From: Candidatus Omnitrophota bacterium | GTDB taxonomy: Bacteria > Omnitrophota > Gorgyraeia > Zapsychrales > Fredricksoniimonadaceae | Assembly: GCA_044225175.1 (NCBI GenBank) | Contig: JBGAJA010000002.1 | Span: 280,991 to 344,990 of the forward strand | DNA: 64,000 bases | Reading direction: 5' to 3' | The notes under the pieces: generated by a model | What the model saw: the letters and a program-made list of their open reading frames with translations, nothing else | What the model was told of the DNA's origin: nothing | Database searches by the model: none | Position numbers and translations under genes: made by a program | In this document: positions 24,301-27,300 of the stretch, piece after piece | Numbering within the stretch: the first letter of the stretch is position 1 | Layout of the letters: each line of letters starts with the position of its first letter

Positions 24301-27300
24301 AAAACAATGGAATTTATGATGCAATCACTCAAGAGATTCAGCAAATGGGATATAAGTCATATGAACTTTTGACACGTTCCGTTACGGGGGGTCTAGGATA
24401 TGACACGACATTTCTAGATGCGTCATCTGGCATTGATTATCTTGATGAAAATACTCAAGAAGCAACAACAAAGATCAAAGAACAAATGGCCCAAACATTA
24501 GGCATTCCTTCATCTAAAAGTACGCTGGAGTATCCCGTAGGCCTAATCACTTTTATGATGGAAAAGATGCACAGAGATTTTACGGATGCTGGTTACTTAG
24601 GTACTGTTAAAATTCAATATAAAGAGTTTCTAAATTTAGCCCGTCAAGCCTATCAATCGCTTTCCCCCGAACAACAATCAAGCCCAACAGGACAAAGATT
24701 TTTACAATACCTAAGTTTTTATTCCTTGCTATTAAGAATCAATGACCAGCTTAAGAAGAACCCTCTGATGCCAATTGAGCCAATGTATGATTACAGTAGC
24801 CCCAAAAGACGTACTTCAAAAGAGATTCAAAGATCTAAAAAAAGGTTTATTTCTTTCGTCAATAAAACATATAGGCTTCATTTTAAAGCAGATCATCTCA
24901 AAACATTGGAGGATTATGCCCAGATTTTTGAATCCATCTTGGCAAAAGATGAGTCGATAAAACTAGCCATTTCGGGTGAACGAGAGTCAGTTGCGAATCC
25001 TCTGGCAGAAAAGGATTTAAAATCACGGCAAATTTCCTGGTTATGGACTATAGGCCTTATAAGCGCTGCATCTATCTTTGGGCTTCAATTGTTCATAGGT
25101 TCATCGATCAAGGATAATACGACAATCCTAGCGATCATTTATATGGTTTTGATTGCCCCCATACTCGAAGAAGTCGTTTTTCGAATTATTTTATTTCAAC
25201 GATTATTCCGTCCTTATTTTGGAGTGATTGTCTCAACGGTGATTTCTTCCCTGCTTTTTGCTTTGGTTCATCTTATTGTGGAGAGATTAAATGTTCTAGA
25301 TTTCATAACTTTTTTTGCTTTTGGAACTGTGTATGCTTTGGCTTATGAGAAAACAAAGAAGTTCTGGGTCCCCATAATGGCCCATGTCATCAATGACGGT
25401 CTTATTAATCTTTGTATTTTTTACGGTATCCTCGACGGAACCGCAGGGGGTATAAGCTTTGTAGCATTTAGAGGGTTGATCCTTGTTATCTTTGTGAGTT
25501 GGCTTATGGCAGGTCGGGGAAATTTTTCTAAGTTGTTTGATAAAACAAGTAAGGTTGATTCCAAACTACTTAGATGGTACGAACAATGGGATGACAGTGT
25601 TAAAAGAAAAATTCGTCTATTTAGAAAAAAGGTGAATATCGAAGATGTCATCCAAGAGAGATGGTTAGGTAAACTGGAAAGCTGGCAAAAGAAAGAAATT
25701 CTGGCTAGCTTAAAACAAGAGCGCAAAGTCCTTTCAAAGATTTTAGGTTTTATGGCCGTTGCGAGTGCCATTGTAATTCTTCTTTTTGTTTTGAGTAAGG
25801 TGGCTATTTCTTTCGATTTACCCCCAATGCCGCTAACACCAGTATTTATTCTAGTACTTTATTTGACTCTTATTACTCATGAATTGGGCCATTGGTTGGC
25901 AGGACGTTGGATCCAATACCATGTTAAACCTTCTCCTTATAAGAAAATATCCATTCATTTAATTCCAAATCCACCATATGTTGCTTATGTAGATTTCCTG
26001 CCTAAAACAGAGTTTAGTCCTACACCAGCACAGCATATATTAACTTTTCAGGGTGGACCTTTTGCAAATTTGATTCTGGCAATGTTGTGTTCTCCTGCTT
26101 TAGCTTATTTGGTTTATCACGGATCACTATTCTCACAACTCACGATAGGTTTATTGCTGGCATCAAACCTCGTATTTTTTTCCATGTATTTAATAAAGTA
26201 TCCGTCAATCAGCGATGGGGCTATTGTAAAACAGACCCGAGGGATTTTAAAAATAGTTAATTCAATGATGATGTTATATGAAAATATAGGTCCGCTGGAA
26301 TCCATAGAAGACAATGATGACAATCAATTCTATTTAAAAATGGGAGGAAGTATCTATGCCCTTGTAAAAGAAGATGGCAAACAGAGCCATGCTGACCCAT
26401 CCATAGAGTTGATCTATTGGGCTAATAGTCTTGGCATACAAGAACCAATAGCTGTTCCATTTAGGATTCATGGTGAATTAATCAAGACAAAGACCCAAGA
26501 ACCTTGTTTTGTATATCAGGGAAAGAGATATTTTCTATATAAAATTTCCAACTTCCCTCAAGAATTATTGATCCCTGAGGACGATAGCCTTTCAGAAACA
26601 CGAAATCCTCTTGATCAGAGATCGCTGAATACTTATAAATTAGCGAATGTCTTTAAAGATCTTTTCATCAAGTTATGGAGAAAATTCTTAAGAAAGAAAC
26701 GATCAGTCGAGTATCCCTTGGATGAAGCCGTGTCCAGAGAGCATCCGGTCATTTGTTTTGTATTGAATTTCTTGCGTGAGAAAGATCGAGACGAAATGAT
26801 TATGTCGTTAGAAAGCAGGCTGACCCAAAGGCAGGTTTTTCTTAAAGAAAACATCGTAACAGCCGATGAGTTTATATCCCAAGCAACAGTCGTCATTGAA
26901 TCGGTATTTGAACTAGAGCAACTGATCGGACATAGGCATGAGAATTTAATAGGGCTACTAAAACGGGCCTACGAAGACTTGAAAAAGGGGCAAAAGATCA
27001 AGGATTGGCGTACAAGTCTTAATCAATTCATCGATTGGGGATTTCCCATTGAGTTCATCCAGGAAATTGTGACAAATCGGGAAGTTAAAGATTACTTTGT
27101 TAATTATCGAAAACCTTTCCCGATTTCAAGACATCAAGGAGGCTATTCCTGTTTAGAAATTGTGTTTTCAGGTATGGTTGGGGGCTTTTTATGTTATTTA
27201 GGAAAGTGGTGGGTTTTTGCAGCACATTTAATCTTATTTTGGATAGATGGCAGGATTATTCATTATTTCACCGTAAAGATTATGTCTGATCGATGGAACA

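What the first reader, a model, noticed from the sequence alone, without database searches (positions are those of the whole stretch)
25030..26230. Two intramembrane metalloprotease-type motifs near the C-terminus of the giant protein (CPBP/Abi and HExxH), with possible autoprocessing
EExxxR, FxxxH and HxxxN motifs of the CAAX-protease/CPBP family lie in hydrophobic helices at 25155-25400. About 480 nt later HELGH sits in a TM helix (25878-25892). A megaprotein carrying its own intramembrane proteases could cut itself into the individual enzymatic cassettes. It could also process a partner such as the neighbouring secreted proteins.
Basis: partly seen in the sequence, partly recalled or inferred. 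Interest (0 to 1): 0.6.

Follow-up and report, generated by a model that had tools for sequence, protein, structure and literature searches.

The report
Two membrane proteases inside a giant protein
Near the end of a bacterial protein of more than 9,400 amino acids sit two real, apparently intact membrane-embedded proteases side by side (a CPBP/Rce1 type and a site-2-protease type). Whether they cut the giant protein itself is unproven, and the same gene also holds an unexpected set of SecM-like "ribosome-stalling" motifs.

Summary
All motifs lie at the stated coordinates in one ORF, which is open from window base 3 to 28430 (at least 9,475 aa; its N-terminus lies outside the window). The catalytic residues align with those of the solved Rce1 structure and with canonical S2Ps. 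The ten helices obey the positive-inside rule, which puts HELGH and the Asp-Gly motif at the cytoplasmic face.

The two proteases are independent cassettes. The closest relative of each sits in another large modular membrane protein (an Omnitrophota MAG, "bacterium F11", a JGI contig). None of those relatives carries both, so the tandem is unique so far.

Autoprocessing remains inference. I found no cleavage motif that co-occurs with the cassettes, and nothing links them to the neighbouring secreted proteins.

In passing: the ORF holds five RAGP and one RGPP. These are SecM/Apd-type arrest cores that bacterial proteomes avoid. RAGP is enriched 92-fold and conserved at codon level. Each site lies 1 to 31 residues before a strongly hydrophobic predicted helix. 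This may be the more novel feature.

The parts
3..28430 (+). Giant ORF (at least 9,475 codons in the window, N-terminus outside it). A modular polytopic membrane protein with 38 hydrophobic segments. Contains Bac_transf (nt 12963-13487), GT9 (21135-21491), Methyltransf_11 (23451-23588) and a duplicated nucleotidyltransferase-like module.
25038..25514 (+). CPBP/Rce1-type intramembrane protease cassette, six predicted helices (aa 8327-8485). The Pfam core is aa 8354-8447 (nt 25119-25400).
   Evidence: PF02517 78.4 bits. A profile of this domain plus about 100 homologues hits solved Rce1 4cad at E 2e-7. 39% identical to the CPBP module of the Omnitrophota protein P0011 (about 40% by tblastn).
25167..25184 (+). 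CPBP motif 1, EEVVFR (E8370, E8371, R8375)
   Evidence: E, E and R are invariant in 88 aligned sequences. In the profile hit the family consensus EE...R columns align to Rce1 FEELGWRG.
25257..25271 (+). CPBP motif 2, FALVH (F8400, H8404)
   Evidence: invariant F and H; the family consensus F...H columns align to Rce1 FWSLWH
25383..25397 (+). CPBP motif 3, HVIND (H8442, N8445, D8446)
   Evidence: invariant H; the family consensus HxxxN columns align to Rce1 HFLIN; D replaces the usual N at +4
25515..25739 (+). Basic cytoplasmic linker between the cassettes (aa 8486-8560; 21 K/R against 11 D/E). Its first part (FDKTSKVDS..YEQWDD) is conserved with P0011. Its last part (WLGKLESWQ) is conserved with the M50 modules of P0016 and P0019, so the cassette junction lies at about aa 8515-8528.
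25740..26219 (+). M50 / site-2-protease cassette with four predicted helices and no PDZ or CBS domain (aa 8561-8720)
   Evidence: PF02163 43.1 bits. hhalign against canonical S2Ps gives probability 96%, E 1.5e-9. Relatives are P0016, P0019 and S. suis 'site-2 protease family protein'.
25878..25892 (+). HELGH (H8607, E8608, H8611), at the cytoplasmic end of helix Hb
   Evidence: invariant in all 9 aligned M50 sequences; topology
26055..26060 (+). G8666-P8667 of the S2P '(A/G)GP' motif, at the start of helix Hc
26214..26219 (+). D8719-G8720, candidate third zinc ligand. It aligns with the DG of the canonical NxxPxxxLDG motif.
   Evidence: invariant D and G in A9 and A1; in register with PMDGG/ALDGG of canonical S2Ps
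26220..26597 (+). Soluble, mostly beta domain ending in NFPQELL. It always follows this M50 module in the three large relatives. Function unknown.
627..638 (+). RAGP site 1 (aa 190-193)
3636..3647 (+). RAGP site 2 (aa 1193-1196)
13551..13562 (+). RGPP site (aa 4498-4501), four residues after helix 4469-4493
19541..19592 (+). RAGP site 3 with its conserved block (MMSSLLGFMSPIRAGP)
21782..21833 (+). RAGP site 4 with its conserved block (94% identical DNA to site 3; flanks unrelated)
22980..22991 (+). RAGP site 5 (aa 7641-7644), two residues after helix 7619-7638
28418..28831 (+). PilZ-domain ORF overlapping the giant ORF's stop codon by 13 nt. A PilZ gene also follows the P0011 gene.

Best explanation
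Shown. Window 25038-26219 encodes two catalytically complete intramembrane protease cassettes in tandem. They lie inside a modular inner-membrane protein of at least 9,475 aa, in an organism that is probably an Omnitrophota-type bacterium.

Cassette 1 (aa 8327-8485) is a six-helix CPBP/Rce1-type glutamic endopeptidase. Cassette 2 (aa 8561-8720) is a minimal four-helix site-2 protease (M50) without PDZ or CBS domains. It has HELGH, a GP motif and an Asp-Gly motif. A 75-residue basic linker joins them. The positive-inside rule puts the linker, both ends of each cassette and the M50 metal-binding motifs on the cytoplasmic side.

The two cassettes are evolutionarily independent. Each has its nearest relative inside a different large modular membrane protein. 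The rest of the giant protein carries envelope-glycoconjugate enzymes: a polyprenyl-phosphate sugar transferase, a GT9 heptosyltransferase-like domain and methyltransferases. A PilZ gene overlaps the end of the ORF by 13 nt and may be translationally coupled.

Inferred. Both modules are active proteases that cut membrane-embedded or juxtamembrane segments at the cytoplasmic leaflet. Their most likely substrates are helical anchors of the giant polypeptide itself, in the same or a neighbouring copy. Cutting those anchors would release or turn over individual cassettes. My estimates: domain identity about 0.95; catalytic competence about 0.75; self-processing as the main role about 0.4.
For: Pfam scores are above the gathering cut-offs for both domains.

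CPBP. Motif residues are invariant or near-invariant across 88 to 109 aligned sequences. The profile of this domain and its homologues hits Rce1 4cad, and its three motif columns align with the Rce1 motifs.

M50. HELGH, GP and DG are invariant in alignments with two giant-protein relatives, the S. suis S2P-family proteins and four canonical S2Ps. hhalign against canonical S2Ps gives probability 96%. The first AF2 model, although low in confidence, predicts helix, then beta-hairpin, then two helices.

Topology. Loops predicted inside carry 39 K/R. Loops predicted outside carry 2. HELGH and D8719 lie at cytoplasmic helix ends.

Link to giant proteins. In a HMMER scan of 1.84 billion representatives, the best hit for the CPBP part is a 2,609-aa Omnitrophota protein. 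The only hits among the 150 best listed that align to the M50 part are proteins of 2,689 and 5,707 aa.

Precedent. Self-cleavage by embedded C39/S8 peptidases has been proposed for Omnitrophota giant proteins.
Against: There is no experimental or proteomic evidence of cleavage.

No recurrent candidate cut site co-occurs with the cassettes. RAGP is absent from P0011 (CPBP) and from P0019 (M50).

Characterised CPBP and S2P enzymes are usually described as acting on separate substrate proteins (my own knowledge, not tested here). In such mega-ORFs the cassettes may simply be fused operon genes.

That the nearest relatives sit in giant proteins may reflect phylogeny rather than function.

The Pfam and hhalign local alignments of the M50 module stop before the third motif. 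Both AF2 models were of low confidence (pLDDT 48 and 53), so the active-site geometry is not verified.

A naive helix parse puts H8404 nearer the outer face than E8370. Only a reliable model can resolve this.
Confidence: 0.4

Rival explanations
1. The cassettes act on other proteins. On this reading the CPBP and M50 modules are ordinary intramembrane proteases that were fused, like the other enzymes, into an 'operon-in-one-ORF'. They would process other membrane or exported proteins, for example substrates of the envelope-glycoconjugate pathway, signal or anchor remnants, or regulatory proteins. They would not process the giant protein itself.
For: The giant protein is a mosaic of otherwise stand-alone enzyme families. 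This matches the 'multi-enzyme cluster' class described for Omnitrophota long proteins. The closest stand-alone relatives of the M50 module are ordinary 200- to 320-aa S. suis proteins. About 150 stand-alone CPBP proteins match the CPBP module. No cleavage motif shared with the relatives was found.
Against: No candidate substrate gene is adjacent. The downstream genes are PilZ and then the divergent mutL/mutS. The nearest relatives of both cassettes are embedded in large modular proteins rather than free-standing.
Confidence: 0.35
2. The RAGP/RGPP sites are the cut sites. On this reading the five RAGP and one RGPP motifs, each followed within 1 to 31 residues by a strongly hydrophobic helix, are internal sorting-signal-like recognition sites (motif, then helix). 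The C-terminal CPBP and/or M50 module would cleave them, as CPBP-type MrtX enzymes are thought to handle C-terminal sorting signals.
For: RAGP is enriched 92-fold and sits just before transmembrane clusters. NCBIfam gives weak similarity to the sorting-signal proteases MrtJ and MrtS.
Against: The MrtJ and MrtS scores (36.9 and 29.8 bits) are far below their cut-offs of 75 and 130. RAGP is absent from the CPBP-bearing P0011 and the M50-bearing P0019. In the one paralogous pair, conservation extends about 30 residues upstream and stops exactly at the Pro codon, with nothing conserved on the C-terminal side. A protease or sorting site would not be expected to behave that way. The sites are conserved at codon level, which a cleavage site does not require. 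The distance from motif to helix varies from 1 to 31 residues.
Confidence: 0.1
3. The domains are non-catalytic relics. On this reading they serve only as membrane anchors or scaffolds, as described for the inactive CPBP-fold protein SpdC/LyrA.
For: The CPBP profile also hits LyrA (6u0o). The M50 third motif is atypical: the N..P part is degenerate.
Against: Every catalytic residue of both families is present, and they are conserved with relatives at 25 to 40% identity.
Confidence: 0.08

Closest known systems
Rce1 / CPBP (CAAX protease and bacteriocin-processing) family, PF02517; solved example Methanococcus Rce1 (PDB 4cad); bacterial examples MroQ, MrtJ, MrtS
   Same: The profile match is well above threshold. 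The three signature motifs EExxxR, FxxxH and HxxxN/D lie in hydrophobic helices, and the family-profile motif columns align with the Rce1 motifs.
   Different: The domain is embedded about 8,300 residues into a giant protein and followed by an S2P module. It has D instead of N at the fourth motif-3 position. Its scores are far below the equivalog cut-offs for MroQ, MrtJ and MrtS, so it is not one of those named subfamilies. No CAAX or C-terminal sorting substrate is evident.
Site-2 protease / peptidase M50 family, PF02163 (MjS2P 3b4r, RseP 7w6x, SpoIVFB 8vjl); closest stand-alone relatives are the Streptococcus suis 'site-2 protease family protein' / TPR proteins
   Same: HExxH sits at the cytoplasmic end of a helix. 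It is followed by a loop with predicted beta-strands, a GP motif that opens the next helix, and an Asp-Gly motif after the last helix.
   Different: There is no PDZ or CBS domain. The NxxPxxxLDG motif is degenerate (…MYLIKYPSISDG). The domain is followed by a conserved domain of about 125 aa ending in NFPxELL, which was seen only in the three large relatives among the 165 retrieved proteins. Only profile positions 2-131 of 221 are matched by Pfam.
Giant multi-enzyme membrane proteins of Omnitrophota, with embedded C39/S8 peptidases proposed to self-cleave (bioRxiv 10.1101/2023.11.21.568195; 10.64898/2026.06.07.730766)
   Same: The ORF is very long, has many transmembrane helices and tiles unrelated enzyme families. 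The nearest relative of the CPBP cassette is from an Omnitrophota MAG with the same downstream PilZ gene.
   Different: The proteases here are intramembrane types (CPBP and M50), not soluble C39 or S8. Neither CAAX nor M50 appears in the main text of either preprint (CPBP and the two Pfam accessions were searched only in the 2026 one). No SecA-DEAD domain lies in the 9,456 aa visible here. The taxon of the window itself is inferred, not shown.
SecM / ApdA / ApdP / YwcI ribosome-arrest peptides with RAPP-like cores (PMC10951299, PMC10987492, PMC12992588). This entry concerns the RAGP/RGPP sites, not the proteases.
   Same: The core tetrapeptide is identical (RAGP as in SecM and YwcI; RGPP as in Apd homologues). 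MSPIRAGP resembles Mannheimia SecM HAPIRGSP. The Arg and Ala codons match E. coli secM (CGT GCT). Conservation ends at the Pro that would occupy the A site. The sites are associated with membrane-targeted sequence.
   Different: Known arrest peptides are small upstream ORFs with one arrest site near their C-terminus, and they regulate a downstream gene. Here six sites lie inside one giant ORF. The upstream context differs from SecM's FxxxxWIxxxxGIRAGP. [quoted passage not shown]

Membership tests
CPBP / Rce1-like (PF02517) | Profile match at or above the Pfam gathering score | tested here: met
   78.4 bits on the isolated segment and 71.9 bits in the 4,956-aa chunk, against a cut-off of 22.4
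CPBP / Rce1-like (PF02517) | Motif 1, EExxxR | tested here: met
   E8370, E8371, R8375. Invariant across 88 aligned sequences. The family-profile columns align to Rce1 FEELGWRG.
CPBP / Rce1-like (PF02517) | Motif 2, FxxxH | tested here: met
   F8400, H8404, invariant; the family-profile columns align to Rce1 FWSLWH
CPBP / Rce1-like (PF02517) | Motif 3, HxxxN/D | tested here: met
   H8442...D8446. The H is invariant. The +4 position is N in at least 90% of homologues and D here. That D is an accepted variant is from my own knowledge of the family definition.
CPBP / Rce1-like (PF02517) | Motifs lie in membrane helices of a polytopic core | tested here: met
   Hydropathy analysis and a six-helix parse that is consistent with the positive-inside rule
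CPBP / Rce1-like (PF02517) | Rce1-like fold with converging catalytic residues | not tested
Only a sequence-profile link to 4cad is available.
CPBP named subfamilies (MroQ, MrtJ, MrtS) | NCBIfam equivalog score at or above the curated cut-off | tested here: not met
   47.5 bits against 270 (MroQ); 36.9 against 75 (MrtJ); 29.8 against 130 (MrtS)
Peptidase M50 / site-2 protease (PF02163) | Profile match at or above the Pfam gathering score | tested here: met
   43.1 bits (36.5 in the large chunk) against 27.2. Only profile positions 2-131 of 221 are covered.
Peptidase M50 / site-2 protease (PF02163) | HExxH within a transmembrane helix | tested here: met
   H8607, E8608, H8611 at the cytoplasmic end of helix 8593-8614. 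Invariant in 9 aligned sequences.
Peptidase M50 / site-2 protease (PF02163) | Third zinc ligand: the Asp of the (N)xxPxxxLDG motif in a later helix | tested here: inconclusive
   D8719-G8720 are invariant and in register with the DG of canonical S2Ps in MAFFT alignments. The N/P part is degenerate. The Pfam and hhalign local alignments stop before it. No reliable model is available.
Peptidase M50 / site-2 protease (PF02163) | Conserved (A/G)GP motif after the post-HExxH loop | tested here: met
   G8666-P8667, aligned by hhalign with AGP of canonical S2Ps. G is invariant and P near-invariant.
Peptidase M50 / site-2 protease (PF02163) | S2P core fold | tested here: inconclusive
   AF2 pLDDT was 47.6 and 53.1. 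Foldseek against PDB on the second model gave no hit at E <= 0.001.
RAPP-like ribosome-arrest peptides (SecM / Apd / YwcI) | C-terminal core R-(A/G)-(G/P)-P | tested here: met
   Five RAGP and one RGPP. The cores are defined in PMC12992588 and PMC10987492.
RAPP-like ribosome-arrest peptides (SecM / Apd / YwcI) | Small upstream ORF with the arrest site near its C-terminus, regulating a downstream sec/yidC-type gene | tested here: not met
   The sites are internal to an ORF of at least 9,475 codons
RAPP-like ribosome-arrest peptides (SecM / Apd / YwcI) | Demonstrated ribosome stalling that depends on the Arg and the Pro | not testable with these tools
   Needs toeprinting or PURE-system translation
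Omnitrophota giant membrane proteins | Very long ORF with many transmembrane helices that tiles unrelated enzyme domains | tested here: met
Omnitrophota giant membrane proteins | Encoded in an Omnitrophota genome | tested here: inconclusive
The taxon is inferred only from the best CPBP relative (Omnitrophota MAG GCA_028715415.1) and the shared downstream PilZ gene.

The most novel reading that the evidence does not exclude
The giant ORF may use built-in SecM-type ribosome-arrest (pausing) sites. There are five RAGP and one RGPP, each placed just before a hydrophobic helix or cluster of helices. On this reading they pace translation so that each new set of helices is handed to the membrane-insertion machinery after hundreds to thousands of cytoplasmic residues have been made. 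The C-terminal CPBP + M50 pair would then trim or release anchors. That would be the first case of arrest peptides used repeatedly inside one structural gene for its own biogenesis, rather than in a small regulatory upstream ORF.
Probability: 0.35. Interest if true: 0.85.

Novelty: new variant of a known kind. Interest (0 to 1): 0.5.

Why it matters
Whether bacterial giant proteins work as single polypeptides or are cut into pieces is an open question raised by the papers that describe them. This locus gives a concrete test case: a CPBP-type and an S2P-type intramembrane protease, both with complete active-site motifs, fused in tandem near the C-terminus of a modular membrane protein of more than 9,400 aa. 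Point mutants (E8370A/E8371A, E8608A) in a C-terminal construct would show directly whether they process the parent chain.

The M50 module plus its NFPxELL domain also defines a small subfamily. Its closest relatives (25-27% identity over about 320 aa) are in three large modular proteins, with a set of more distant S. suis proteins.

Separately, the cluster of SecM-like RAGP/RGPP cores runs against a strong, proteome-wide avoidance of these tetrapeptides. If the sites do pause ribosomes, they would show how a cell manages co-translational insertion of an extremely long polytopic protein.

Tried and rejected
(1) Word-indexed homologue search with the 441-aa CPBP+M50 segment. It returned only 7 distant stand-alone or TPR-fused CPBP proteins and no M50 hit.

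(2) The same tool with the 3-sequence M50 alignment found nothing. With the S. suis protein added it found only 5 S. suis-type proteins.

(3) Genome-collection scan with the single segment found nothing, so the source genome is not among the species representatives. Alignment-based scans of genomes and metagenomes returned only ordinary RseP-type, SpoIVFB-type and S. suis-type S2Ps.

(4) The look-up of encoding contigs for the window's AccA and MutS found nothing on record. The taxon therefore stays inferred.

(5) AF2 of the M50 module twice (3-row and 8-row alignments) gave pLDDT 48 and 53. Foldseek on the second model gave no meaningful hit. I draw no structural conclusion from these models beyond secondary structure.

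(6) I tried a combined block alignment to model both domains in one job. MAFFT put the M50 rows into the CPBP half.

(7) The PDB hits of profile A9 to S2P structures are not counted as independent evidence. Four canonical S2Ps were in that profile. I use A9 only for its alignment, which places D8719 in the DG column of canonical S2Ps.

(8) RAGP as a signal-peptidase-I site or lipobox is rejected. Only one of the five sites has small residues at -1 and -3, and there is no Cys.

(9) RAGP as relic N-termini of fused genes (MSPIR..., VMR...) is unlikely. Two of the five sites lack a Met, and the one paralogous pair is conserved for about 30 residues upstream of the motif.

(10) RAGP as a DNA-level site is unlikely. 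All five copies are on one strand, in one frame and only inside this ORF.

(11) An offline HMM search for further CPBP or M50 modules in the giant protein, and for a CPBP module in P0016 or P0019, found none.
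Full report
**What is at the coordinates**

The window holds one enormous open reading frame on the + strand, listed as 60..28430 (9,456 aa). The same frame has no stop back to base 3. Its first residues (PADIDIVAI...) precede a stretch (aa 4-175) that aligns with an internal nucleotidyltransferase-like module (aa 1689-1865). The gene therefore starts upstream of the window, and at least 9,475 codons are visible.

- EEVVFR, nt 25167-25184
- FALVH, nt 25257-25271
- HVIND, nt 25383-25397
- HELGH, nt 25878-25892

The third CPBP motif is HxxxD, with N at +3, rather than HxxxN.

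As bare patterns these are weak evidence. HExxH occurs twice in the protein against 0.29 expected, and EExxxR occurs 8 times against 2.1 expected.

**Profile tests**

- PF02517 (Rce1-like) matches aa 8354-8447 with 78.4 bits, E 5e-22, against a gathering cut-off of 22.4.
- PF02163 (Peptidase_M50) matches aa 8596-8734 with 43.1 bits, E 4e-11, against a cut-off of 27.2. It covers only profile positions 2-131 of 221.
- NCBIfam gives sub-threshold similarity to the CPBP equivalogs MroQ, MrtJ and MrtS. This is a CPBP-family domain but none of those named enzymes.
- The last 709 aa of the protein match no Pfam family.

**CPBP cassette**

In alignments with 7, and then about 87 to 108, homologues, the following are invariant or nearly so: P8367, E8370, E8371, F8374, R8375, S8396, F8400, H8404, G8422 and H8442. 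The family's N at motif-3 position +4 is D8446 here.

A profile of this domain plus its homologues hits the solved Rce1 structure 4cad (E 2e-7). The profile's three motif columns align with Rce1's FEELGWRG, FWSLWH and HFLIN. It also hits LyrA/SpdC.

**M50 cassette**

A HMMER scan of 1.84 billion representative proteins with the C-terminal 1,200 aa gave 2,476 hits, almost all to the CPBP part. Among the 150 best listed, the only hits aligned to the M50 part were two large proteins: P0016 (2,689 aa, a JGI metagenome) and P0019 (5,707 aa, "bacterium F11").

These two share with our protein a unit of about 320 residues:
- an N-terminal helix W-x-x-x-LE-x-WQ
- two helices, the second carrying HELGH
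- a loop, then a helix beginning with GP
- a last helix followed by DG
- a soluble domain ending in NFPxELL

Alignment-guided scans of genomes found a stand-alone Streptococcus suis protein with the same three motifs (LYLTLILHELGH, AGGP, NANPSGIADG). Pfam assigns it to M50 (36 bits), and NCBI names a close S. suis homologue recovered with it (P0163) "site-2 protease family protein".

Profile-profile comparison of our subfamily with four canonical S2Ps (RseP-type and SpoIVFB-type) gives probability 96%, E 1.5e-9, from HELGH through the GP motif. In MAFFT alignments that include the canonical enzymes, H8607, E8608, H8611, G8666, D8719 and G8720 are invariant. Our ...YPSISDG lines up with ...IPAFPMDGG and ...LPFPALDGG. 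D8719 is therefore the candidate third zinc ligand. This rests on alignment only.

Two AF2 attempts gave pLDDT 48 and 53, and no usable fold match.

**Topology**

I parsed the region into six helices (CPBP) and four helices (M50). Loops that must be cytoplasmic carry 39 Lys/Arg, including a 75-residue linker with 21 K/R. The alternate loops carry 2.

On this parse both cassettes are N-in/C-in. HELGH sits at the cytoplasmic end of its helix. GP sits at the cytoplasmic start of the next helix. D8719 lies just past the cytoplasmic end of the last helix. That is the arrangement expected for an S2P.

For the CPBP domain, the simple parse puts H8404 nearer the outer face than E8370. Because the family relationship to Rce1 is strong, I treat this as a limit of hydropathy parsing and not as a refutation. 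It is unverified.

**Cassettes and relatives**

The best relative of the CPBP part is P0011 (2,609 aa; 39% identity; an Omnitrophota MAG). It has methyltransferase, CPBP and HEAT repeats, and no M50. Its conservation with our protein runs through FD..SKVDS....Y...DD just after the last CPBP helix.

P0016 and P0019 have the M50 unit but no detectable CPBP. None of the roughly 155 other CPBP hits has an M50 module.

The tandem is therefore a juxtaposition of two independent cassettes, with the junction at about aa 8515-8528. Among the 165 retrieved proteins (the 150 best hits of the representative scan plus the word-search hits), none pairs the two.

The P0011 gene is followed by a PilZ gene 33% identical to the PilZ ORF that overlaps our giant ORF's stop codon. 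Its reading frame is open to the contig edge.

This is the only evidence for the taxon. The window's own proteins are in NCBI on a 793-kb contig without names. The genome was not found in the species-representative collection.

The surroundings are ordinary chromosomal genes: mutL, mutS, accA, rlmN, bio genes, mnmA and two tRNAs.

**How it most likely works**

Shown:
- two intramembrane protease domains with complete signature motifs
- a coherent topology with cytoplasm-facing M50 motifs
- a setting among envelope-glycoconjugate enzymes: Bac_transf at aa 4302-4476, GT9 at about 7026-7144, a methyltransferase at about 7798-7843

Inferred: both are active and cut helical or juxtamembrane segments at the inner leaflet.

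Which substrate they cut is open. The idea that embedded peptidases cut giant Omnitrophota proteins into pieces is already in the literature, for C39 and S8 domains. CAAX-type and M50 domains are not mentioned in the main text of either paper I checked.

I give self-processing about 0.4, because the nearest relatives of both cassettes live inside other large modular proteins. I give action on other proteins about 0.35, because such ORFs look like fused operons and no shared cut motif exists. Nothing connects the proteases to the signal-peptide proteins at 33.5-37 kb and 55.6-64 kb.

**A second feature of the same gene**

While looking for cassette junctions I found RAGP five times (aa 190, 1193, 6508, 7255, 7641) against 0.054 expected. 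It is the most over-represented tetrapeptide in the protein, at 92-fold. None of its 23 permutations occurs more than once. There is also one RGPP (aa 4498).

No RAGP, RGPP or RAPP occurs in the other 11,388 aa of long ORFs in the window, or in any other frame.

Each site is followed within 1 to 31 residues by a strongly hydrophobic predicted helix. RGPP and the RAGP at aa 7641 each follow a predicted helix by two to four residues.

RAGP is the core of the E. coli SecM arrest peptide and of B. subtilis YwcI. RGPP and RAPP are strong arrest cores that depend little on sequence context. All three are among the most avoided tetrapeptides in bacterial proteomes: E. coli has five RAGP and no RGPP in its entire proteome (PMC12992588, PMC10987492).

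Three further observations point to a translation-level role rather than a protease site.
1. Sites 3 and 4 share a 51-nt block (94% identity, differences synonymous) that encodes MMSSLLGFMSPIRAGP. Similarity extends about 30 residues upstream, roughly the length of the ribosome exit tunnel (my own knowledge, not tested here), and ends exactly at the Pro codon.
2. All five sites read CGTGCTGGACC with at most one mismatch. That is 5 found against 0.13 expected in the window. All use CGY for Arg, although CGY is only 23% of Arg codons in this ORF. E. coli secM reads CGT GCT GGC CCT at its arrest site.
3. MSPIRAGP resembles the Mannheimia SecM arrest peptide HAPIRGSP.

Caveats:
- The upstream context differs from SecM's.
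- The relatives P0016 and P0019 carry only one such core each (RGPP, RAPP), and P0011 carries none.

I found no paper that links arrest peptides to giant proteins. I rate this reading at about 0.35. It lies outside the finding's coordinates but bears on it. It offers a non-proteolytic explanation for the only recurrent junction motif, and so weakens the most obvious candidate for cut sites.

**Verdict**

The CPBP-then-M50 tandem embedded in a giant modular membrane protein is a new arrangement of two well-known protease families, inside an already described kind of protein. Autoprocessing is a reasonable but untested inference.

Noticed in passing
window 627-638, 3636-3647, 19581-19592, 21822-21833, 22980-22991 (RAGP); 13551-13562 (RGPP): The giant ORF holds five RAGP and one RGPP. 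These are SecM/Apd-type ribosome-arrest cores that bacterial proteomes avoid. RAGP is enriched 92-fold. All five copies read CGTGCTGGACC with at most one mismatch. Each lies 1 to 31 residues before a strongly hydrophobic predicted helix. None occurs elsewhere in the window.
   Followed up: partly
window 19541-19591 and 21782-21832: A 51-nt block is repeated at 94% identity. It encodes MMSSLLGFMSPIRAGP. The flanks downstream are unrelated, and similarity ends exactly at the Pro codon.
   Followed up: partly
window 12798-12809 (aa 4247-4250): A GIRAGA sequence (the SecM-like GIRAG without the Pro) lies five residues before the first hydrophobic segment (aa 4256-4294) upstream of the sugar-transferase module (Pfam match aa 4302-4476). 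It may be a degenerate seventh site.
   Followed up: no
window 1-60: The giant ORF has no stop back to base 3 and begins inside a nucleotidyltransferase-like module that is duplicated at aa 1689-1865. The gene extends beyond the window, so the protein is larger than 9,456 aa.
   Followed up: yes
window 28418-28831: A PilZ-domain ORF overlaps the giant ORF's stop codon by 13 nt. A PilZ gene also follows the related large gene in an Omnitrophota MAG (L006 8418-9134). This hints at c-di-GMP control of the glycoconjugate-synthesis modules.
   Followed up: partly
window about 16380-19380 (aa about 5440-6440): There are about nine tandem copies of a 100-aa repeat of unknown function, in two blocks. 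Each block follows a pair of transmembrane helices, and each is followed by a conserved basic segment.
   Followed up: no
window 26220-26597; also P0016 aa about 440-544 and P0019 aa about 2990-3098: A soluble domain of about 125 aa ending in NFPxELL always follows this type of M50 module in the three large proteins. It matches no Pfam family.
   Followed up: partly
window 55564-60237 and about 60230-64000: Two large paralogous proteins with signal peptides share ...GPMPV(N/S)A...KPGVMVHLS... near the N-terminus. The first (1,557 aa) has no Pfam match; the second was not scanned and runs off the window.
   Followed up: no
L007 4254-21377 (P0019) aa 5609; P0016 aa 2058: The two large relatives that share the M50 module each contain exactly one strong arrest core. 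P0019 has RAPP about 100 aa from its C-terminus. P0016 has RGPP directly after a hydrophobic helix.
   Followed up: no
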